DNA of 64,000 nt from Eledone cirrhosa (Eukaryota): NCBI GenBank assembly GCA_964016885.1, contig OZ024743.1, forward strand, positions 275,590,001-275,654,000, in the 5' to 3' direction. Both the position numbers and the translations under genes were made by a program. The notes under the pieces were generated by a model. It had not been told where the DNA came from and ran no database searches. It saw nothing but the letters and a program-made list of their open reading frames with translations. Below are positions 1,388-63,000 of the stretch, piece after piece. Numbering within the stretch: the stretch's first letter is position 1; every line of letters begins with the position of its first letter.

Positions 1388-2792
1388 GTTGGCATATAAC
1401 TCTTATTTTCAGTGGAGTAGAATCCATTACAGTAGTGGTGGAATATAATACAGAGTTAAAACGTATGTATCTTGTTATGAAAAGAATAGTTATATGGTAC
1501 TAGTTAGTGTAGGTCTTCCTGCCAGAGGGAGAAGTTTTCTCGAAATCAGCCAAGAATGTGTATCTGTAAATGTTTGCTGTGGTGTCTTGGATATGTGAGT
1601 AACATGTGAGTAATACATATTGGTGTTTTATAAAGGATTAACTGTCGAATAAGGATAAATTATCTTTTAACTGTGGCGGAGATGTATTTGTTTTGTAAGG
1701 TTTTTGCTGTGAAATCGTGTGTTGAAACAGATATTGTTATTTTGGGGAGGGTCATGTTGTTCTTTTATTGCCAGAAAAATGATGTTGCAGATATGTGTGA
1801 TGAAAGAACTCTGAGAAACTATATTTATATTTATATTTTCAACTGTTGGTCAACCAGTGATAAACATTGCTTGCCAGCTGAATTATAAATAATAATTTAT
1901 AGAAATATAAAGATATACTGAAGCAAAAACCAAACCAAACAGTGAGTGTGTTTTACTATATTTTTTGGCAATATTAGAACAACATGACCCTCTCCAAATA
2001 TAGCAATATCTTTTAGCTCTGAAGGGGAAAAATAGATTTTGTGATGTAGGGTTAACACCCATACAAGTCAACGCTGATCTGGTACATACTATGTCCAAAG
2101 CCCTTCCAGTCATACCCATCCATTCTTGGTTCATGTGTAGTATATCTAGAACTACATTATCTAACCTGTCCTTTTTTAAGATGTTAGAGGGTTATTTGAG
2201 TGAAATTTGACTGCAGGTCAAGTGACTGCAGGTCAAGCGACTGCAGGTCAAGCGGCGCAATAGAAGCTTCCTCTTGGTTTTGTGAAATACTTTTGTTATA
2301 GAGGGAGAACATTTCCGATTGATAGAGTATTGATAGTATATAGAATGCGATGAAGGAGCGTCCATTACTCCAGGAGAGAAATGAGGAGCATAAATGATGT
2401 GAAGTGTATCTATATGAAATGAGATGCAGGAGGACAAGGGAGTGAAGTGTATCTATCATAAAATCGAAATCATATCGTATATTTAACTCACTGGAACTTG
2501 AGTGTTTTTACTCTACAACGTGTTCCTTAAGACAAATTAATTAAACCGGTTATAATGTCAGTAGATCTTCTCTGGTAAGAAATTCATTGTTATTGTAATC
2601 AATAGCAAACAGATTTGATATTGTCCTAGCTCTACAATAACATAGTCAGACATATTTTGATTACATAGATAAATCGACTTCTATTGGTTTCGATGATGAG
2701 TGTCCCAGTTGTGCAGTGAACGGAACGGCCTTCTCATTAAATTAACGTGTATTCCACGTATACAGACATGTCCTCTTAACGTAATTCTAAGG

Positions 2793-3070
2793 CAGAGGTT
2801 CTCAAACTTTTTGAGTCATCGATCCCCTCACGGCCACGTAATACCCTCAGCACCCCCACCCCTATTTCCAGAGAGATCTACTGACACGCAAATTGTAAAT
2901 AATATATAATAAATAAAATTGTCAATTTATATATAAATAATATAATATGTATCATTTGATATTTAATATACTACTATATCATTTCTACGCCCCCACCCCC
3001 TTAGGCCCCAGCACCTCCTGGACCTTCTCAACGCCCCCGAAGCCGGTAGCGCCCACTTTAAGAACCTCTG
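2793..3070. mobile_element. hAT-type MITE (278 bp) nested in a SINE-like repeat
   Basis: TIRs CAGAGGTTCTCAAA / TTTAAGAACCTCTG, exact 8-bp TSD TTCTAAGG at 2785-2792 and 3071-3078. Confidence 0.9.
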
Positions 3071-3455
3071 TTCTAAGGGATATTCAACGTGACACAGGAA
3101 GTGACAAGGCTGGTTGTTTGAATTATAGACCAGGCATGTCAAACTGAGGATCCCCCAAGGGCTGCATGGGTCATATATGTGTTGTCTGAGAGCCGCACAC
3201 AACAATTAATTGTGTACATTACAACTAATTAAAGTCATTTAATAAAATTTATTGCAGAAAAATTTGTTACTTAAATTTAGAAACATACAATGTACAAATA
3301 AATGTTTTAGCAACATTCATGAATGCAAAGTAATGAAGTGGTTTGATAAAAAACTAAAGTTTTAAATGGCAACATATACTTGCAGCTTGCAACAACAACA
3401 AATACATTGTACAAAAATTACAACAGTTCAAAACTGAACATTTATTTGTTACTAT

Positions 3456-4995
3456 TCAACCATTTTTAGTGTTTTGTCCTGAGGCTTGACACCTCTTTTT
3501 GTTGACAATATTTGGTATGTCTGGCTGAAATGTCTGTACAGTTCCGACTTTGATCCGGGATGACAAGTGTTGATCAGTCAGCCTTGTTCTCTGAGAAGCT
3601 TTTGTTAATTCCATGAAGGAAAATAACCCTTCACACACATAGGTAGAACCAAACATTGTCATAATCTTTGTGGCAAACTTTCTGAAGTTTTTTAACTTTT
3701 CAGGAAGGTATGAAAAAAACCAGGTTTCACCACTTCAAGATACTTTGCTCTGAGTCTGGTATCTGACTACATTTCCAATAGTTCCATCTGCAGGCTTTCT
3801 TCTGCCTTGGCAACATCAAAAGTGAATGGTGCTGAAAATAATGTAAACTGATGTTCAAAAGATGAGAAATCACAAAATCTTTCCTGAAATTCCTTTGACA
3901 ACAATTCCAGGTGGCTGTCATACTTAGCAAAGCTAAGTACAGAATCAGTATTGGCAGTGTTTTTCAGCTCTTTGCACGTAGGGAAATGAACTAATTTTCA
4001 TTTGACAACTGTGACTTCTATAAGTTTAGTTTTCCAATGAAGCACTTGATGTCATCATACAACTGAGTGATGAGTTTGTTTTTACCTTGTAATTTCAAAT
4101 CAATATCAGTTAATTGCGCAGTAATATCCACAGCAAAAGCCAGACCTTGGAGCCAACTTTCATCTTTTATTTCATCTGTGTTTTGACCTTTCATCTCCAA
4201 AAACATAATTATTTCTTGTCTCAACAAATAGAATCTTTTCAGCACTTTGTGACATGACAACCATCAGACTTCTGTGTAGAATGGAACATCGGTGAACTGA
4301 TTATCCATATCTAACGGCGGTTGAGAGCATGGCCTCTGATATAGTTCACTGTCTTTGTGACCAAGCTAAGCACATGATGCAATTTAAAAATCTTTGAACA
4401 CAAATTTTGCTGATGAATAATACAGTGAAAATGTGCAAATGATGAATCTGGGTGCGAGTTTTCTATTTTTGTTCGTAACTTGGCAGTAACACCATTATGT
4501 CTGCCAACCATATTCACAGCACCGTCAGTAGATAAACATGCAAGTTTATTCAAATCAAAACCATAGTCATACAGAACCTGCTCAACCTTCTCAAAGATGT
4601 CCTGGCTTGTTATAGTGTCAAGCATGGAGACCAGTTCAATCAGTTCTTCATAAATATTAAATTCACTGTCACAGGCCCTGATGAAGAATACAAGCTGTGC
4701 TATTCCAGTGATGTCAACGGTCTCATCAATAGTAATAGAAAAATGTTCAAACCTTGATGATACAGCCTTCAACAGTTGTTTCAGATCATCTGACATTTCA
4801 TCAATCCATTCAGCAACAGTGTTCCTGGTTAATGAAATGTCTTTGAATAATTGTGCTTTCTCTGGACATAAAATTTCAGCTGTTTTTACAAGGCATTGCT
4901 TTACAAAATCTCATTCAATGTAAGATTTCCCGCTTATGGTGATCATTCAGCTGAGTTCATAACTTGCAGTAACGGAAGCTACATTTTCTTCCTGA
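3456..4995 (-). pseudogene. Frameshifted hAT transposase (GTF2IRD2/SPIN-like)
   Basis: Motifs IDETVD, STDGAVNMVG, HCIIHQQ (CxxH) and MFGSTYVCEGLFS across ORFs 4311..4796, 4018..4260 and 3456..3662. Confidence 0.9.
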
Positions 4996-6874: not shown

Positions 6875-7003
6875 TGATGATGATTTCTCCCGAATGAAAC
6901 AGTTTTAGTCCTGTAGAAGCCATTTCTATATTAAATATTTATACTCTGCTATGTATTGAGTACCTTACTTACTGTGGTTACACCCGATTGGACCCGGGAT
7001 ATC
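6875..7003 (+). repeat. Penelope-like pLTR fragment (family B; also 35843-35938 inverted and 48184-48385)
   Basis: Shared tgatgatttct..gaatgaaacagtt...atactctgctatgtattg sequence, flanked by microsatellites. Confidence 0.6.
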
Positions 7004-7036
<33 letters not shown>

Positions 7037-7073
7037 TTATATATATATATATATGTGTGTGTGCGTGTGTATA

Positions 7074-35791: not shown

Positions 35792-35844
<53 letters not shown>

Positions 35845-35947
35845 CCCAGGCTCGATCGGGGGTAACCACAGTAAGGTACTCAATACATAGCAGAGTATAA
35901 ATATTTAATATAAAAATGACTTCTACAGGACTAGAACTTTTTGTATA

Positions 35948-36369: not shown

Positions 36370-37755
36370 TACAAACAAATATTGTTGATTGCATTGGTCA
36401 GGCGAGAGGAGGCATACTGGTCTTGCCATGGGATGGATAGATTACAAAAAAGCATTTGACATGGTACCTCATTCTTGGATAACCATAAGCCTAGAGATCT
36501 TCAAGGTGGCAGATAACATCAGACAGCTATTAAGTAAAGAAGACTAGGAAGCTAATGACTATCTACAACATGTTCCACAAGAGGAGTGATGTTGATAGAC
36601 TCTACTTAAAGAGATCTGAAGGTGGAAGAGGTCTTATCAGCATAGAGGACTGTGTTCGGATGGAGAAAAACAGCCTGCACAAATATGTGGCTGACAGTAG
36701 GGAGCCAATGCTCAAAATTGTACTGAAGGAGAAGACAATAGACCAGGGGATGTCCAAGGAGGAAATAACAACAAGGAGGAAGCGCAACCTTCATGAAAAA
36801 TCCCTTCGTAGCACCTTCTTTAAGAAAATGGAATTAAGAGATCCACAGACATGGACCTGGTTAAAAAGAGGAGACCTTAAAAAAGCTACAGAAGGAATGC
36901 TAATGGCTGCGCAAGAGCAAGCCCTCAAAACGAAGTGGGTGAAACACCATATTGACAAGGAGGAGGCTAGCTCACTGTGTAGGATATGTGGAGAGAGAGA
37001 GAGGAGACTGTAGCTCACATTGTATCTGAGGGTAAACACCTAGCCCAGAGTCACTATAAAGGCTGGAGACATGATATGATAGGCAGGGTGATCCACTGGC
37101 ATTTATGCAAACTAAACAATTTACCACATTCTGAGAAGTGGTATGAGCATAAGCCAGAGTCGGTGATAGAAAACGATCAGGTAAAGGTGCTATGGGATTT
37201 TAGAATACAAACGGACAAGAAATTAGAACACAATAGGCCTGACCTGGTAGTTTTGGACAAGGAAAAAAGATCGTGCCTGATTGTAGATGTAGCCTTTGAC
37301 ACAAGAGTGCAAGAAAAGGAGAGGGAGAAAATTAACCGATGCCAGGATTTAAAGTGGGAGTTAAAAAGGATTTGGAACTGCCATGAGATCAAGGTCGTCC
37401 CGATTGTCATAGGAACAGTAGGCACTATCTCAAAGAGTTTCCAAGGATGATTAAAAAAGATTAGTCCAGCCCCGCTTTTTGGAACACTTCAAAAGGCATG
37501 CTTGCTGGGAACAGCAAGAACCCTCCGATACGTCCTGAATGTCTGAGGCTGAAGGTAATGGCTTGATATTCATTCAACAAACTTTCCAGTTAAATAACAT
37601 CAATGAGGTTGGTGTTAGGAAGGGCATCCAGCTGTAGAAATCAAGCCAGAATCAGTTCCCGTCCCACCCTTGCAAGCAGGGAAAAAGCGGACGTAAAATG
37701 AAATGATGATGATGACTGAGACTCAAAGAACAATAATAATAATAATAATAATAAT
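36370..37755 (+). pseudogene. R4/Dong-clade non-LTR retrotransposon, internally deleted, (TAA)n tail
   Basis: DYKKAFDMVPHSW, DRLYLKRSEGGRGL, CRICGE, LWDF..HNRPD, IVIGTVG; tail aataataat at 37732-37755. Confidence 0.85.
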
Positions 37756-44611: not shown

Positions 44612-45160
44612 CATACAGTGTGTTTACGAATAAACATTTGAAAGTCTTTACCTATGGATTTTGGAAGCTGATGACTAGAGCCATTAGGTGGATTCCAGCA
44701 GAAACAGGAGAGGATAATCTGTCAACAGTCGACTGTTTCTAACTTCGGTTGTTATCAAGACCGCGCTCCCCCTCCCTGCCCTCCGCTGGAATCCAATATA
44801 GGCGAAGACATATAGTATTGATGCCTATGTACATGGGCTGATAAGCCTCATTTGCATATGGAGCTGTCAGTCGGCTCGGCCTGAAAATAGAATTAAAGTG
44901 TTTGCATCAACATAGCTGCATACAAATAGGTATGTGTATTTGTATATCTAATGACATACGGTATGTTTACTAATAAAGATTTGAAAGCCTTTAGCTATGA
45001 ATTTTGGTAGCTGATGACTAGAGCCATCAGGTGGATTCCAGCAGAAGCAGGGGTGAGTAATCTGTCGACAGTCAACTGTTTCTGACTCTGGTCATTATGA
45101 AGTCAACGCTCCGCTCCCTGCTCCCTGCTGAAATCCAATATAGACATCAAACCTATCAAG
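44612..45160 (+). repeat. Diverged direct repeat pair carrying CTGATGA...GAA(A/G)C motifs
   Basis: 44612-44810 repeats at 44954-45150. Confidence 0.7.
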
Positions 45161-45169
45161 TACAAATCG

Positions 45170-45875
45170 GAGATCCCCTCTGTCAAGTTAAGTAACACCA
45201 TGTCGTCTGTAAATTCCAGCCGACTGATTTTACACTTGCCAGTTGTGATACCACTTCCAACTCGGCTGCGTATGTCAATCCTGTTCGTAAAATTAATGAG
45301 TAGGAGAGGTGACAGTACGCACCCTTGGCGGAGTTCGACTCCCACATTGAATGGTTTCGATTTAGCACCATTTATTCGAACACAAATATTTGAGCATTCA
45401 TATAGAGACATCAGGGCAGCAAGAAGCTGACCATCAATCCCATACTCCTGCAGAACCTTCCACGGCAAGTACCGAAGAACGCGGTCATATGCCTTTTCGA
45501 GGTCTACAAAAAGGAATATACCTCTTGTCAATAATCCCATGATTTCTCGAAAACCTGCCGCAGTGTGAATATTTGGTCGGCGGTGCCGCATCCGGGGTAA
45601 AAACTGCACTGTTCATCACCTAGCTTGGACTCGACAATCTCTTAGCATAGACTTTACCGCGAAAGCTTAATGAGGAAATCCCTCTATGATTGGAACAATC
45701 ACTCTTGCCTCCCTTTTTGAAAATTGGGATTATCACTCCCGATTGCCATTGCTTAGGTGCCTTTCCAGAAATCCAGGCCACCCGGCACACACGAGTCAGC
45801 CAGAGAATATCTTCTATATTTAAGTCTGTTAACATCTCAGGCCGAATTTTGTCTTCCCCACAGGCCTTGACACAT
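45170..45875 (-). pseudogene. RTE (Expander/Rex3-like) RT fragment
   Basis: PKQWQSGVIIPIFKKG, FVDLEKAYDRV, LRQGCVLSP, FTDD. Confidence 0.8.
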
Positions 45876-48183: not shown

Positions 48184-48191
<8 letters not shown>

Positions 48192-48325
48192 TTTTAATAT
48201 AGAAGAGCTTCTACAGGACTAGAACTGTTTCATTCATGAGAAATCATCAGGGAGCTCCCTGATGATTTCTCACGAGTGAAACAGTTCTGGTCCTGTAAAA
48301 GCTCTTCTATATTAAAACTTTTATA
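48184..48325. repeat. Near-perfect palindrome (71-bp arms) of pLTR family B with back-to-back hammerhead cores
   Basis: Centre cagggagctccctg; CUGAUGA-U...U-GAAAC on each strand. Confidence 0.8.
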
Positions 48326-48441
48326 CTCTGCTATGTATTGTGGTTACGTCCGATTGTGGTTACGTCCGATTCAACCTGGAATAACTTTATATATATATAT
48401 ATATATATAGATATATATATATATATATATCAAATCATATA

Positions 48442-48503
48442 TTTCATCTGACGAGGACGTACTGAAAAAACAACACAGTACCTTCGAAATATATATAATA
48501 AAG
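48442..48503 (+). ncRNA. Hammerhead motif (mirror at ~49483-49543, - strand)
   Basis: UUCAU-CUGACGA-GGACGUACUG..CAGUACCUUC-GAA-AUAUAUAU-A-AUAAA; one mismatch in stem I. Confidence 0.6.
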
Positions 48504-49147
48504 CATATATTTGGATTATGTGAATATCTTCATTTTTTAATATTTTGAATAATATATATATATATATAAATTGATGAGCAGAACAAACAAACATTAAACA
48601 ATCCTTTAAATAAATTAAAAAATAATTTAAATATCTACCTGTTCATAATGCTATTACCGGCGGTTTCCATCCACAAAAGATTGGAAATTCAGAGAATTTC
48701 CAACGGAAAGTAGATTTCATCAGATAGCTATTTCCTTTCTATAGGACATATGTCCCATGGTCCGCAAATATAATGCTAACTACCAGCTCGTATGAGTTAT
48801 GGCCGTTAAAGTGACTCATACGTGACCTGGCCACTAGAGCAAGCGGGAATATTACAGACTTGTTGATGGCTTGGCTGCTAAAAAAATAGCAGTAAGCAAC
48901 AACAAATTTTTTTCCTCTACATAAATTGGAGAATATATAAAAATGAGGTAAATATCTCATTGAGTACTAAGTACACATTGAGACTGTTATTTTTTTAGCA
49001 GCCAAGCCATCAACAAGTCTGTAATATTCCCGCTTGCTCTAGTGGCCAGGTCACGTATGGGTCACTTTAACGGCTATAACTCATACAAGCTGGTAGTTAG
49101 CATTATATTTGCGGACCATGGGACATATGTCCTATAGAAAGGAAATA

Positions 49148-49226
49148 GCTATCTGATGAAATCTACTTTCCGTTGGAAATTCTCTGAATTTCCAATCTTT
49201 TGTGGATGGAAACCGCCGGTAATAGC
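49148..49226 (+). ncRNA. Type I hammerhead motif with extended stem II (mirror at 48650-48728, - strand)
   Basis: GCUAU-CUGAUGA-A-AUCUAC..UUGGAAAUUC(UCU)GAAUUUCCAA..GUGGAU-G-GAAAC-CGCCG-GUA-AUAGC. Confidence 0.75.
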
Positions 49227-51296
49227 ATTATGAACAGGTAGATATTTAAATTATTTTTTAATTTATTTAAAGGATTGTTTAATGTTTGTTTGTTCTGCTC
49301 ATCAATTTTTATAGTTCTGGTATCTCTAATTAGTACCACAGAACAACAATTATATTATAGACACCCTATATATCTCAATGTGTACTTAGTACTCAGTGAG
49401 ATATTTACCTCATTTATATATATATACATATATTATTCAAAATATTAACAAATGAAGATATTCACATAATCAAAATAAATGCTTTATTATATATATTTCG
49501 AAGGTACTGTGTTGTTTTTTCAGTACGTCCTCGTCAGATGAAATATATGATTTGATATATGACATATCTATACGGTCTTGATAGTTCAATTCCTGTATTG
49601 GCAGTGATTTATTTCATCAAATCTCAACATTTATATACCACAAATAATAATATGATAAACTTAAAGAAAAGGACGTGGAGCGGGTTCGAGATATAAGAGA
49701 GGGTGTAAAGAGGAGGAAAGGCAAGAAAAAACAAATAAATACATACATAAATATTTAAATGAATAAAAATAAATAAATGGATGGATGAAAGAGGAAGAAA
49801 TATATTAAAAAAAAAAAAAAAAAAAGAAAGAAGAAATAACGATAAAAGAAAGAGAATGTGTTTGGGAAGTAAAAGGAGGGGGATAGTAAATAAAAATAAA
49901 TGAGCATCAAATATAGGGGGATAGAGAGAAAAAAACCGTTGTTTTCAAATATTAGGTCAATTGAGGCAACCAATCAATTACCATAAACCATTGAATATCT
50001 CTTGTATTTGATTATGCTTACGCTAATTATACTTATATATTATATCAAAATTAATCAATATACATTACTTTTTATAGCCGTCACATATTTAGTTTAATTA
50101 AAAATTTATATAATTTAATTTAACTCATTTTAGATTATAATTTTTGGTTTAGGTAATATATTCCTTAAGTATTTTGTTACAACTTTAAAAAAATTTATCT
50201 TTAAAGCATATTTAAATAATTATTAAACATGTATTAAAATATATATTAAAATACATGCATATATCACCATCAATATATATAATATATTAAGATCATCTAT
50301 TGTCCGAATTATTTTATTTAATTAAGATATTCTCTTTATAAAATCATTTCTATTCTTTAATTATCATTTAATTATAGGATTATAGCAGTTATATTTACTC
50401 TCAAGAGTTTTATTTCGTTAATTTATATTTACTTCTGTAATTACTTATTATTATAGTTTCCTTTTAAAGATATTCTTATATTATTAAACTACATAATTCA
50501 TGTCAAATATAATTTAGCAAGCTATTCAAACAGAATAAAAATATTTACGAAGAATGTAAACAAAAGAAAGATAACTCATTCACCATATGAACATTTAAAC
50601 CTTGTATCTACTCTGAAATCTAGTGATATTTCAAAACCATAAATCAACAATTGTCTAGTTAAATATTGAACTGTCCTAATCAAAACATAGGATACTGAGA
50701 CTCTTAATGAAATGATTCTAATAGATAAAACATCAATAAATTATTACCCCAGTAGGGCAAAAATTATATATATTTTAAAAATTATTAATTGTCAATATTT
50801 TTTCAAAACTTGTACAATGCCTGGAATGTTTACCAATTTTATGTTGGCAGCTGCTGAATAATTCATTTTTCTTGTTAATTAAATTGTCATAATATGTAAT
50901 TAACAATAGAGTCTCAAGATTGCAAAGATTGCAATTTACCGAAATGGATGCGTTCCGATAAGAATTGGCATTCTTTAACCGAGTCCAAGAGATGAAGTAT
51001 TTAATATTCTTGTCCTTTAAAGACCATATTAATTGAGGTTGAAAATTGTTTATCTAGTATAGAAAAGGAATATTTATGATTGTGTATATATATATATATA
51101 TATATATGTATATGTATGTGTGTGTGTGTAAATACATATCCAGTATATTTAGATACACTGATACACACATACATATGCACCTAGTCTGCTTGGAAAAGGG
51201 CCACTAAACGACGATGATGATGATGATGATGACACCGATATCTCCTCCTCCTTCTCCTCATACATGTTATTTATTACACTAATTCTGTTATTACAG

Positions 51297-54829: not shown

Positions 54830-56706
54830 AATAAAAATAATAATAATAATAATAATGAAATTATTGTGTAAAGTGCTCAGGTGCACTACAACTCGTCAAA
54901 GGTGTATGTATAGTACATAGAATAATACACAAATGTCAGGGAAGTGAATAGTGTATGAGTCATGGTATACATGTGTGTATGTGTATGGAGGGGGAACATT
55001 AGCTGTAGTGTTGGCGGATCTCGGGAAGCATGGAGGCCTTAAAGAATGCAGTGTCTCGACAGCTAACAACTGATGCAGGTAGTTTGTTCCATGCTTCAGC
55101 AACTCTGAGCGTGAAAAAATGTTTCCGAAAGTCATGGGAACTGTGCTGTTTTCTGACTTTGTGGACATGTCCATGTGTGTTAGACATGGAAATCAAAAAG
55201 GTACTCAGGGTTGTTGTTGGCAAGATGGTTAACAATTTTGTGGGTATTTACCAAGTCAGTTGCCAGGCGTCGGAGCTTCAATGTATCCATGCCCAGGGAA
55301 GCAAGGTGCTCAGAGTATGGTAGATGCCTAATGGAGGGTATTCGCTTGGTTGCACGTCTCTGAACAGTTTCCAGGCGGTCAATGTTCTGAGCAAGATAGG
55401 GGTTCCAGACTGGTGATGCAAATTCTAAGTGTGGCCGCACCATAGCCATGTACAGCCTTAAATAGATATCTGGAGAGCGGCTGACAAAGGTCTTGTTGAG
55501 TGATGCTAAGACACCCTCGGCCCTTTTGACAATTTTAGAGACGTGCTTTGTCCAACGCAAATCGCTGCTGACCGAAATGCCCAGATCACGTTCACAAGAA
55601 GACTTCTTGATATTAGTGCTGTGGAGGGAGTATGTGGACGCTGGGTTTTTACTCCCAAAATGCATGGTGGTGCACTTGTCCACAGCTAGCTTGAGTTGCC
55701 AGTCTGAGATCCATTGTTGCATTGTGTCCAGGTCAGACTGCAAGCAAGATCTATAGTGTTCAGGATCTATCCTTTTTATCTCAAGATAGAGCTTGATGTC
55801 ATCTGCGTACTTTAGTACCATGGCATTCTTTAAGTTGGCATCTATGTCATTAATATATGCCACAAACAAAAGGGGGCCAAGAACAGATCCCTGTGGTACA
55901 CCAGATAACATCTCATATGGTGAGGAATGCTGTCCCAGAACCGTGATTACCTCTCTTCGACTGAGAATGAAGGACTTCAACCAGTTAAAAAGATCATCCT
56001 TCACACCCATTGCAGAGAGTTTTGCCATAAGCCTTTTGTGTGGCACAGAATTGAAAGCTTTCGCAAAGTCAAGGTAAACAACATCCACCCATGAGCTGCC
56101 ATCAGTGATCCGGGTGATGTCCTCAAGAAACTCTATAAGTTGATCACAGCAGCTGGAGTTGGGGATAAATCCAAATTGTGAGGGCCGGATAAGACTGTGA
56201 GAGCTCCAGAAGTTCCAAAGTGTTTCTCTGACACAGGATTCCATCAGTTTGGCGATGCAACTAGTAAGACTGACTGGACGATAGTTCACAGGTGATGTGC
56301 GGTCACCCTTTTTGAACAGAGGAATGACACTGGCAGTTTTCCACTGTTCTGGAGTAGCACTGTTGTTTAGACAGAATTGGAAGAAGCGTGATAACTGGTA
56401 CAGAAGGAAGTACCCACCACGTTTAAGAAGCAGGTACGTAACACCATCAAGACCAGGAGAGGCATGGTTGCGTTTATTTTTTAGGTGACGTCGCAGCATT
56501 CCATGGTTGAAATAGAGTCCAGTGTCATAGGTGGTGGAGATGGTAGACTCTGGTCTTCAATAGTGAAAATGCCTGCATAGCATTCAGCAATGAGCTCTGC
56601 GCATTCCTTGGGGTCGTCAGTAACCTGGCTTGTGTGGGGATTGCGAAGAGGATCAACTGGAGAGTGAAGCCTCTGCTTTGAGTGAACATACTTCCAGAAC
56701 ACCTTA
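54830..56706 (-). mobile_element. 5'-truncated CR1-group LINE with (ATT)n tail
   Basis: ORF 55180..56499 with SPGLDG, NYRPVSLTS, YLDFAKAF, GVPQGSVLGP, YADD; C-terminal FFTLRVAEAWNKLP. Confidence 0.9.
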
Positions 56707-60061: not shown

Positions 60062-63000
60062 TATCATCATCATCATCCTCGTTTAACGTCCATTTCCCAC
60101 GCTAGCATGGGTCTGGACGGGAATTGTGCCACTTGAGGCAAGATTGGTTGTCTTGCTCAGGACTGACCTGGCGGGTTTTCTACGGCTGGATGCCCTTCCT
60201 AACACCAACCACGTTTACAGTGTGGACTGGGAGGTTTTTACCGTGTTACCTACAATGCCACATTACAGCGTGGACTGTTGTGTTTTTTTGTTGTGACACC
60301 TACACGACCTCATTTATTTAGGACTGGATGTTGTGGTACCAACATAGCTTTACATCAAAAGGGGTGGTGTAGATGGCGGTGGGGGTAGGGTTAGTGGGAC
60401 GGGGGGTGTATTTTGGTTAAGGTGCCTACTGACTGTAGGTTTCGCTTTGTACTTAGGCAAGGAGTCTTCTGTATTACTACGTAGCGCCAAAGATCTCGAT
60501 CCAGTGACATTGTCTTGGAGAGGTGTAACTGTGTGAGGTCGGATTTTATCAAGTCGTCCCAGGTTTTTCTGGGGGTGCCTACTCCGTAGCTATCGTCTAT
60601 TTTGATCGCCCTGCACTTTTTTTATACAGCTGTCATCTTTCATGCGCATCACGTGACCATACCAACGTAGTCTTCTCTCGAGTAAACAGCATCTGATCCC
60701 TCTTATTCCTAATTTCTCACTTAGTTCATTTATTCTTTGCCGTTCGCATATATTACTATTACACATCCAATGGAGCATGCAAGCTTCGTTCCTCTCGAGT
60801 CTGTGTAGATCCTCTGCACCCAAGGCCCATGTCTCACTGCCATGTAACATCGCTGTTCGTATGCAGGCATCATACAGCCTGCCTTTTATTTTTAGAGAGA
60901 AACTTTTAGCGGCCAATAGTGGTATAAGCTCTCTGAACTTTTTCCATCCGGTTCGGACTTTAGCTACAGTACTTTCAGAGCACCCTCCACCACTGCTGGT
61001 TTTGTCACCCAGGTAACGGGTGTCCACTATTTCTATAGAACCATCTGGGCAATGGAATGAACTAGTATTCTGTGGGCACTTGCTGCTATTTATTGCACCA
61101 GAGCACCGGCCACATATAAAATGTATATTTTTAGTTAGCTTACCTGTGATCCCACTACATCTTTTATGCACCCATACTTTGCATTTGGGACATAAAATGG
61201 AGTTTCTGCCTACTCCTTTCCTACACACTGAGCATGGCCATTTCCCAGATGGGACCAGTGCCCTATTCTCCTTCCTACATATTAGGACTTTAGTCTTAGA
61301 CAAGTTAACTTTAAGGCCTTTTGATTCTATGTTTGGAATTTCTTCTCTAGTTCAGCCATTGATTCGGCTATGAGCGTTAGATCATCTGCGTATAGAAGTT
61401 CCCATGGGCAGCCGGTCTTCAACTCCTCTGTTATAGCCTGAAGGGCAATAATAAATAGTAGGGGGCTAAGGACAGAGCCCTGATGAACACCAACTTTTAC
61501 GCTAAATTCTTCACTATATTCGTTGTTAATTCTAACCTTGCTGACTGTTTCTTTATACATGGCTTGTATAGCTCTCACAAGCCATTCATCTACACTTAGT
61601 TTTCTAAGAGCCCACCAGATAATGGAGCGGGGGACTCTGTCAAAGGCTTTCTCCAGGTCTACAAAAGCTAAGTAGAGGGGTTTAATTTTAGCTAGGTACT
61701 TCTCCTGTTGTTGTCGTACAATGAAAAGAGCGTCTGTGGTACCTGACACAAACCCGAACTGCATTTCATCTAGATTAATTCGCTCTCTGATTAGTTGCGC
61801 TATTACTTTTTCTGTGACCTTCATGACCTGGTCAATTAATTGAATGCCTCTATAGTTTCCCCTATCTAGGGTGTCTCCTTTACCCTTGTAGCAGATTATG
61901 ATGATGCTGCTATGCCAGTCCTTTGGTACGACCCCATTCTGTATAACTTGGTTTACTATCCGTGTGACCATAGTGTGTCTCACCGTTCCAGATGCTTTCA
62001 GCATTTCAGCAACTATTTCCGAAGGCCCAGCCGCCTTGCCCGTCTTCATATCTTTGATTGCCTTACTTATTATACTACCTTCAACTTGCACTGCTGGTCC
62101 CTCTATTGGATCGATGTGGAGGAGGTTGTCTTTCTCCCATTTATTCTCCTCATTTAGTAGCCTTTCGTAGTGACACTTCCAAGCTACCTTTTTATCAGCA
62201 TCAGTGATGGCCAGTACACCATCATCATTACGGACACACTTCTCCCCGACAATATCATGGTTCTCCTTGACACATTGTCTAACAATCATGAACATCTCAC
62301 GTTTTTGGTCCTCTCGTTGTAGAACATGCTTGAACTTTCTTTCCTCTGCTTCCCTTCTTGCGAAGTACACTTGTCTCCTAGCTTCCCTCCTGGCCACTTG
62401 ATAGTCTTCTCTACTTCCCCCATCCTTTCCAAGCCTGCTTTTTGGCCTTGATCGACTCCGCCACCTTACTGTTCCACCACCAAGTTACTCTCCTCCTGCC
62501 TATAGGTCTGCTCCAGCCACAGATTTCATGTCGCCTTCAGCAGGTTAGCTTTCAGGAATTCCCACTGTTCCTCTATATTGTACGACTCTAATTGCTCTTC
62601 CTTACTGTCAAAAGCATCAAGTAATATGCTTTTAAATTTATTACTGGCTGTAGGGTCCTTTAACTTCCATATTTTTCTCCTAAGGATAGTCCTCCTCTGT
62701 TGTCGAATACGTCTCGTCCTGACTATGAGGTCGCTAACTATGAGGCTATGTTGGGAGGTGCATTCTTCATGAGGAAGGGATTTGGTGTTTACAACAGACA
62801 CTCTGTCTCGTCTTCTGGTAAGGATATAATCTATCTGACTGGCGTGTTTACCCTGATCTATAGGTGATCAAGTGATTGTCTCGTTTTTTGAAGTTTGTGT
62901 TACAGATAGTTAGATTATTTGCGTCACAGAATTCCAAGATTCTGGAGCCTTCTTCATTTCTAGTACCAAACCCATACGCTCCATGGATTCCGTCATAGCC

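What the first reader, a model, noticed from the sequence alone, without database searches (positions are those of the whole stretch)
48425..49560. 1.1-kb nested fold-back holding four hammerhead motifs of two types
Seen: order A-B-C-B'-C'-A' with near-identical arms. A carries a hammerhead with palindromic AUAUAUAU stem III; B carries one with a long stem II and an A-G apposition at 10.1/11.1. Each strand therefore encodes one motif of each type. Inference: repeated template switching during Penelope-type reverse transcription. The transcript could form >300-bp dsRNA, a likely ADAR or Dicer substrate that competes with ribozyme folding.
Basis: partly seen in the sequence, partly recalled or inferred. 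Interest (0 to 1): 0.75.

Follow-up and report, generated by a model that had tools for sequence, protein, structure and literature searches.

The report
Penelope-type insertions stacked in TA repeats
This 1.1-kb mirror structure is real but is two unrelated mobile elements stacked in TA repeats: a two-armed copy of a small protein-free ribozyme repeat, likely inserted by a Penelope-type enzyme, sits between the end of a broken Penelope element and a short back-to-front copy of that end, which was likely made by a DNA fold-back slip.

Summary
The arms and four hammerhead motifs are there, but they are not one element. The inner 861 bp (48563-49423) is one head-to-head insertion of a 478-nt non-coding hammerhead unit (retrozyme-like, hundreds of copies). 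The 'nested' C/C' is its circular permutation; 43 of 93 sampled insertions show the same two fixed ends in TA, the Penelope (PLE) footprint. The outer A' is not an arm end: it is the 3' end of a 1.65-kb truncated Hydra-type PLE running to 51083. A is a 128-bp tail-to-tail copy of it that shares a rare stem-breaking base (6 of 259 other copies), so it is likely a local DNA fold-back at TA tracts; similar TA-centred pairs recur in this genome. A read-through RNA is predicted to fold into over 300 bp of duplex with no hammerhead folded, but transcription, editing and cleavage are untested, and no read spans the locus. The scan has already reported this PLE footprint for other retrozyme-like units in this genome, and flank duplications beside PLEs in other genomes. 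Verdict: new members of known kinds; modest interest.

The parts
48386..48430 (.). (TA)n tract with one G interruption; left junction of the short A copy
   Evidence: sequence
48425..48552 (+). A: 128-bp copy of the 3' end of a Hydra-type PLE, pointing inward; hammerhead core 48448-48454, predicted cut after 48497; stem I carries a C.A mismatch
48553..48568 (.). (TA)n joining A to the left arm of B
48563..48983 (-). Left arm (421 nt) of the 478-nt unit, order C-D-B, ending at fixed site 1 (no tail); hammerhead core starts at 48723, predicted cut at 48655
48983..49423 (+). Right arm (441 nt), order B-E-C, ending at fixed site 2; joined head-to-head to the left arm with about 1 shared base at 48983
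49148..49226 (+). Type I hammerhead motif B: 5-bp stem I, A.G at 10.1/11.1, 6-bp stem II with an 11-bp extension hairpin, 3-bp stem III, GUA at 49219-49221
49314..49423 (+). 110-nt one-sided tail between the two fixed ends; a predicted short hairpin lies 3' of each site
49424..49432 (.). short TA-rich joint between the B tail and A'
49430..51083 (-). A': 1.65-kb 5'-truncated Hydra-type PLE; 3' end at about 49430, hammerhead core starts at 49537, predicted cut at 49488; 5' end joined to (TA)n
50790..51053 (-). C-terminal remnant of the PLE endonuclease (88 aa; CxxC and CxH motifs)

Best explanation
The structure is a stack of two separate elements in (TA)n: a two-armed copy of a 478-nt non-coding hammerhead repeat, likely inserted by a Penelope-type enzyme, between the 3' end of a truncated Hydra-type Penelope element and a 128-bp inverted copy of that end that was likely made by a DNA fold-back at TA tracts. 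Shown: family identity, unit length, the two fixed ends, arm orientation, shared rare base. Inferred steps: (1) a Hydra-type PLE inserted in (TA)n and was 5'-truncated (A'); (2) a break or nick in the TA tract at its 3' end let a 3' end pair with self-complementary TA, copy 128 nt of A' backwards to an internal ATATAT, and rejoin the left TA tract (A); (3) a PLE enzyme cut TA, both DNA ends primed reverse transcription on an uncut multimer or circle of the 478-nt RNA, one at site 1 and one at site 2, and the two cDNAs were joined head to head. The order of (2) and (3) is not resolved. The locus is most likely an inert fossil: neither B arm is a full unit, and in a read-through RNA the B motifs are predicted to be trapped in duplex.
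For: B: period 478 nt in a natural tandem copy; 138 of 144 arm 3' ends fall at two sites 110 nt apart; of 93 insertions 43 are site1+site2, 2 are site1+site1, 80 have TA at both ends and none exceeds 1459 bp; longest stop-free frame 85 codons in the longest block; 72 of 90 site-1 arms and 32 of 48 site-2 arms run through the predicted cut site and 35 of 138 exceed one unit. This matches the PLE footprint of inverted 5'-truncated copy plus one-sided tail (PMC8557442) and two RT start sites that define the tail (PMC11167929). A: matches longer copies out to 51083; longer copies hold RT motifs, then CxCX5C, then an endonuclease with CxxC and CxH, the Hydra marks. Duplication: A and A' share a base found in 6 of 259 other exact-match copies and about 1% of family reads in two other samples; only 5 of 351 other copy pairs share a minor variant; the base breaks stem I and the 6 other carriers differ from one another upstream. 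10 of 84 inverted pairs in about 855 kb have TA on the inner side of both arms; L120 repeats a private inversion junction, L069 repeats private variants and flanking microsatellite, and L054's partner is its best match in the genome (96% against 94% or less for the 39 other matches listed).
Against: Only one shared rare base lies inside the 128 bp, so the duplication is likely, not proven. Independent insertions of one family on both sides of a B copy do occur (L080, L129), and short A copies are common. L027's pair was inconclusive, because its family is 99% identical. All duplicated segments tested turned out to be repeat-family ends, not unique DNA. The PLE family that drives B was not found. 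No read spans the locus. Samples were picked by similarity to B or by the site-1 pattern, so the counts are not genome-wide rates.
Confidence: 0.72

Rival explanations
1. Same inner element, but A is an independent short insertion of the A family into the TA tract left of B; the outer symmetry is a coincidence of a crowded TA hotspot.
For: Another family flanks B on both sides by separate insertions in 2 of the 93 blocks (L080, L129); several of the 28 other A loci printed are under 200 bp; A-A' identity (98%) is no higher than to the best other copies.
Against: Shared rare stem-breaking base (2.3% of other copies); only 1 tail-to-tail pair among the first 100 listed T-variant matches, and that pair (L069) is itself a local duplication; no other sampled B block has an inverted A pair at its ends.
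Confidence: 0.13
2. The inverted flank was made by the PLE enzyme during B insertion: the left DNA end first copied 128 nt of the target's other side, then jumped to the RNA at site 1, giving an inverted target duplication.
For: In the window and in L022 the short copy is on the site-1 (no-tail) side and the long original on the tail side, and both pairs share minor variants; divergence of A/A' (3 of 128) is compatible with that of B/B' (4 of 325).
Against: Only 2 of 93 blocks show it, and one was chosen for it; TA-centred pairs also occur with no B between them (L054, L069, L175); in both cases the outer pair is nominally more diverged than the window's B arms.
Confidence: 0.1
3. One reading: one composite element built by repeated RT template switches between A and B RNAs in a single event.
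For: The order of segments is nested, and every joint lies in TA, where an RT could jump.
Against: A' continues 1.5 kb beyond the symmetry as an ordinary truncated PLE; A arms point inward and are antisense to the adjoining B arms; none of the other 92 B blocks or 28 A loci shows this composite; the C/C' nest follows from the unit's permutation.
Confidence: 0.03
4. Assembly artefact from fold-back reads.
For: No read or contig spanning the locus was found.
Against: Arms differ at 9 of 504 positions, end exactly at the family's two fixed sites, and the same two-armed layout occurs at 42 other loci.
Confidence: 0.02

Closest known systems
Insertion units of endonuclease-bearing Penelope-like elements (PMC8557442 passages and section 11; PMC3846280 passages; PMC11167929 parts 1-2 of 4)
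   Same: Head-to-head 5'-truncated arms, tail on one end only, two fixed ends, AT-rich or (TA)n targets, hammerhead near the 3' end.
   Different: B has no ORF; its tail is 110 nt and A's about 100 nt, against 30-40 bp in those papers; no TSD can be read in TA; the outer tail-to-tail pair is not the usual PLE layout.
Animal non-LTR retrozymes (PMC7229834 passages; bioRxiv 10.64898/2026.07.22.740005 part 1 of 5 and passages)
   Same: Non-coding tandem unit, 34% GC, one type I hammerhead per unit, copies with two motifs 478 nt apart, structured predicted circle (z -4.6 against 60 shuffles), proposed PLE dependence.
   Different: Unit slightly longer than the 150-450 bp quoted; mostly dispersed sub-unit to two-unit copies, not long arrays; A.G at 10.1/11.1; expression and circles untested; this copy holds no two same-strand B motifs.
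Hydra clade of PLEs (PMC8557442 section 11; supplementary files S1 and S2, part 2 of 59)
   Same: RT then C-terminal endonuclease, CxCX5C linker, CxxC and CxH motifs, (TA)n targets, 3' hammerhead; non-G-C 10.1/11.1 appositions are common in its listed hammerheads.
   Different: Copies reach 3.1 kb while still truncated (clade generally under 3 kb); long 3' UTR; DKT and RWK motifs not seen in their place in the truncated copies; no phylogeny was built; hammerhead sequence differs from the listed Hydra-1_oBim motif.
Fold-back templated inverted duplications at breaks (PMC11724301 abstract) and TA-repeat fragility repaired by MMEJ (PMC13645644 passages)
   Same: Short inverted copy of adjacent DNA bounded by microhomology; TA tracts as break sites.
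   Different: Those are yeast (mostly 5-34 bp) and human cancer ecDNA; here 67-630 bp pairs in a germline animal assembly, with the enzymes unknown.

Membership tests
PLE-type insertion footprint (family B) | Inverted 5'-truncated copy joined head to head | tested here: met
   45 of 93 blocks have two defined 3' ends facing outward
PLE-type insertion footprint (family B) | One-sided tail between two fixed RT start sites | tested here: met
   138 of 144 arm ends at two sites 110 nt apart; longer than the published 30-40 bp
PLE-type insertion footprint (family B) | Own RT plus GIY-YIG ORF | tested here: not met
   all 93 blocks at most 1459 bp; longest open frame 85 codons in the longest block; so B is not an autonomous PLE
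PLE-type insertion footprint (family B) | Target-site duplication | tested here: inconclusive
   ends lie in (TA)n; flank comparison found no direct repeat abutting both ends, but short TSDs cannot be read in TA
Non-LTR retrozyme (family B) | Non-coding low-GC tandem unit with one type I hammerhead | tested here: met
   478 nt, 34% GC; core conserved in 105 copies
Non-LTR retrozyme (family B) | Two consecutive units with complete hammerheads | tested here: met
   met by other copies (same-strand exact motifs 478 nt apart at 4 places among the 100 listed); not met by the window copy
Non-LTR retrozyme (family B) | Expression as linear and circular RNA; self-cleavage | not testable with these tools
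   no run on record as RNA was offered; no assay possible
Non-LTR retrozyme (family B) | Similarity to the pLTR of an autonomous PLE | tested here: inconclusive
   no partner in about 855 kb of fetched loci; whole genome not searched for it
Hydra PLE (family A) | RT followed by C-terminal endonuclease | tested here: met
   RT motifs upstream of the endonuclease in L072-L074 by eye; Pfam gave no relevant hit
Hydra PLE (family A) | CxCX5C linker; CxxC and CxH around the conserved E and N | tested here: met
   window remnant has CxxC and CxH
Hydra PLE (family A) | (TA)n insertion and 3' hammerhead | tested here: met
Hydra PLE (family A) | DKT and RWK motifs; length under 3 kb; clade placement by phylogeny | tested here: inconclusive
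   copies are 5'-truncated and decayed, one reaches 3.1 kb; no tree built
Type I hammerhead ribozyme | CUGANGA, GAAA and UH core with stems I-III | tested here: met
   B: all stems, one pair with both-side change (C-G 68, U-A 23 of 105); A: stems present in the family, stem I mismatched in both window copies
Type I hammerhead ribozyme | G10.1-C11.1 pair | tested here: not met
   B has A.G in 101 of 105 copies; A has G-C or G-U in 56 of 60
Type I hammerhead ribozyme | Measured self-cleavage | not testable with these tools
   indirect and weak: 17 arm 5' ends against 8.7 expected in the 21 nt after the B site, but 6 against 4.3 within 5 nt

The most novel reading that the evidence does not exclude
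Penelope enzymes sometimes copy 100-150 nt of the target DNA backwards before jumping onto their RNA at the no-tail start site, leaving an inverted target duplication; TA tracts seeded by PLEs would then act as a genome-wide factory of fold-back palindromes and double-stranded RNA in this animal.
Probability: 0.15. Interest if true: 0.6.

Novelty: new member of a known kind. Interest (0 to 1): 0.3.

Why it matters
Family B adds one more case in which a protein-free hammerhead repeat carries the exact insertion footprint of Penelope elements, which supports the proposed retrozyme-PLE dependence and offers two mapped start sites for an in vitro test. The outer pair points to recurrent fold-back duplication at TA tracts, a mutational process that can be counted genome-wide. 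The locus itself is probably a dead stack with no function shown.

Tried and rejected
Rfam: no match at gathering score in the window; no hammerhead family at E up to 10 around the locus. A strict descriptor scan of the window found only the two B motifs. Pfam on 5 A-family peptides: nothing relevant. Protein search with the endonuclease ORF among longer proteins: none at E 1e-10. Sequencing runs: no RNA holder listed; 8 of 8 listed runs laid, none spans the locus, depth comes from family copies. Autonomous partner of B: none in fetched loci. Neptune assignment for A (my first reading) dropped for Hydra. Template switch inside B/B' homology as the source of A: rejected, because it would also have copied the 110-nt tail, which the left arm lacks at its end. 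Fixed 5' end of family A at 51083: rejected, other copies run further. L022, L027 and L054 flanks as unique DNA: rejected, all are repeat families. Fossil ADAR editing at this locus: not seen. Pile-up of 5' ends at the cut site: weak only; three windows were tried, and 3 of the 17 ends come from one locus with a duplication. Literature searches listed no paper on inverted target duplication by PLEs; only listings were seen for most, subscription journals are not covered, and bioRxiv supplements could not be seen.

Full report
Setting. The window lies on contig C4 of a 3.0-Gb genome, G000. The host was not identified here. The 26 kb around the locus holds only repeat-type or low-complexity open frames by eye, so whether the locus lies in a transcript is unknown.

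Observation. The three inverted pairs and their order are as described, with 3 of 128, 4 of 325 and 2 of 51 substitutions between arms. Four hammerhead cores are present, one of each type on each strand, and two more cores of a third family lie at 48250 and 48259. Rfam recognises none.

Inner part: family B. A search with B' gave 2143 first-look candidates, 40 scored, at 95-100% identity; an exact 22-mer of the ribozyme occurs 115 times. A natural tandem copy (L015) shows a period of 478 nt: B, then E, C and D, then B again. The window's left arm reads C-D-B on the minus strand (421 nt) and the right arm B-E-C on the plus strand (441 nt), so the 'nested' C/C' is the same stretch of the unit seen before B in one arm and after it in the other. 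I sampled 93 distinct blocks, picked by similarity to B or by the site-1 end pattern and fetched; the window's own block, one 55-bp block and two blocks of an older subfamily are included. Of these, 43 have one end at site 1 and one at site 2, 39 site 1 only, 5 site 2 only, 2 site 1 twice and 4 neither; 80 have TA at both ends; the longest is 1459 bp. 138 of 144 arm 3' ends fall at the two sites, which are 110 nt apart, each with a U-rich UAUA-like start and a predicted short hairpin 3' of it. The longest block has no frame over 85 codons. This is the PLE footprint described in PMC8557442 (passages) and PMC3846280 (passages), and PMC11167929 (parts 1-2 of 4) showed in vitro that a PLE protein cuts and extends both strands and starts at two internal RNA sites that bound the tail. 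That B is moved by a PLE enzyme is inferred; the partner was not found in about 855 kb.

Template of B. 72 of 90 site-1 arms and 32 of 48 site-2 arms pass the predicted cut site, and 35 of 138 are longer than one unit, so the template was an uncut multimer, a circle, or was jumped across. The unit folds well as a circle (-119 kcal/mol, z -4.6 against 60 shuffles). Arm 5' ends are twice as frequent as expected in the 21 nt after the cut site (17 against 8.7, P 0.008), but not within 5 nt of it (6 against 4.3, P 0.26); three windows were tried and 3 ends come from one duplicated locus. This is a weak hint that some templates were cut.

Ribozyme B. In 105 copies the core is nearly invariant, one stem II pair changes on both sides (C-G 68, U-A 23), and the A.G apposition is kept in 101, so it is a family trait, not decay. 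The changes track subfamilies and are few independent events. PMC4209133 (parts 1-2 of 4) calls G10.1-C11.1 highly conserved in PLE hammerheads, but the Hydra table in the supplement of PMC8557442 lists many with U.U there, so a non-canonical apposition is not exceptional. Alone, stems I and II are predicted to form (0.74-1.0) and stem III hardly (0.08).

Outer part: family A. A has 1202 candidates, top hits 95-98%. A' is not bounded at 49560: it matches other copies to 51083 and ends there in the C-terminal part of an endonuclease ORF. Longer copies show RT motifs, an asparagine-rich stretch, CxCX5C, and CxxC and CxH motifs, the marks of the Hydra clade (PMC8557442 section 11). Pfam and the protein search gave nothing and no tree was built, so the clade call rests on motifs. 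The family's own inverted pairs point outward, with a tail of about 100 nt on one side. A and A' point inward and both lack the tail.

Origin of A. A and A' share a C that 6 of 259 other exact-match copies carry and about 1% of family reads in two other samples. It breaks a stem I pair (hammerhead fold +2.5 against -1.6 kcal/mol for a family-type copy), and the other carriers differ among themselves upstream, so it looks like a recurrent post-insertion change. Only 5 of 351 other pairs share a minor variant. A stops at an ATATAT inside A', and a further 9 bases of the left TA tract match two private bases of A', which is weak extra support. A scan of all fetched DNA found 84 inverted pairs, 10 with TA inside both arms, the window included. 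Three are clear local duplications: L120 repeats a private inversion junction, L069 repeats private variants and microsatellite flanks, L054's partner is its best genome-wide match. L022 has the window's layout with another family and shares two minor variants (2 and 4 of 23 others). L027 is undecided, L060 and L175 were only inspected, and L041 and L080 look like separate or two-armed insertions. Against duplication: L080 and L129 show one family inserting twice beside B. I put local duplication at about 85%. TA tracts are known break sites repaired by microhomology (PMC13645644 passages), and fold-back inverted copies form at breaks (PMC11724301 abstract). Whether B came before, with, or after the duplication is open: 3 of 128 and 4 of 325 do not differ clearly.

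RNA consequences. A plus-strand RNA over 48425-49560 is predicted to be 90% paired, with helices of 220+104 and 82+22+21 bp and the tested hammerhead stems at probability 0.0. In nascent-RNA snapshots the B motif is already trapped, because its complement is made first; the A motif keeps stem II but not stems I and III. The layout is symmetric, so the same is expected on the minus strand (not computed). Each strand has only one A, so the dimer that its palindromic stem III suggests (PMC4209133) cannot form in cis, and neither B arm can release a unit. ADAR or Dicer action is untested; the arms carry no A-to-G cluster.

Artefact. No contig or read spans the locus. Arm differences and family-exact ends make an artefact unlikely.

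Relation to earlier notes. The scan has reported the two-armed footprint for 310-, 500- and 522-nt hammerhead units in this genome and Hydra-type elements with twin ends, and flank duplications beside PLEs in other genomes. The 478-nt family itself had no look-alike in the index. These notes are not independent support.

Verdict. Real; two new members of known kinds plus a likely local fold-back. Interest 0.3.

Noticed in passing
window 48184-48383: Two-armed insertion of a third family: 71-bp arms meeting in a palindrome, two hammerhead cores with U.U at 10.1/11.1 that lack the 5' strand of stem I, and a tail on the right. Older copies at 6878-7048 and 35842-35942; very high read depth.
   Followed up: partly
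L120 1410-2456: 252-bp inverted duplication that repeats a private inversion junction of an older B subfamily, with pieces of two other TA-targeting families in the middle.
   Followed up: partly
L069 about 2157-4230: Tail-to-tail A pair with about 630-bp arms including microsatellite flanks, around a 600-bp spacer with no B sequence.
   Followed up: partly
L022 1250-1372 and 2190-2312: The duplicated flank belongs to a 1344-candidate family with a hammerhead-like motif whose core reads CAGAAGA-type.
   Followed up: partly
L080, L104, L125, L129: One further TA-targeting family sits directly beside B in 4 loci, twice on both sides, which suggests shared hotspots.
   Followed up: no
L111, L112, L128: Three B copies of exactly 274 bp with the same 5' start, from a diverged subfamily.
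   Followed up: no
L006 about 2310-2590: Perfect tail-to-tail hairpin of about 135-bp arms of another family, with a third copy beside the B end.
   Followed up: no
run X4 (organism B), laid on 49166-49202: One low-depth contig appears to hold a relative of ribozyme B with the same extension hairpin but a G-C pair at 10.1/11.1; single contig, unconfirmed.
   Followed up: no
L077 2628-5412: Tandem array with a period of about 272 bp at 96-97% identity, just upstream of an A copy.
   Followed up: no
L070, L073, L074 (A-family ORF): Asparagine runs between RT and endonuclease, like the N-rich inserts described in rotifer Penelope ORFs (PMC3846280).
   Followed up: no
window 55180-56556 (-), 60590-62484 (-), 36534-37450 (+), 45103-45612 (-): Open frames that look like non-LTR reverse transcriptase fragments by eye.
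   Followed up: no
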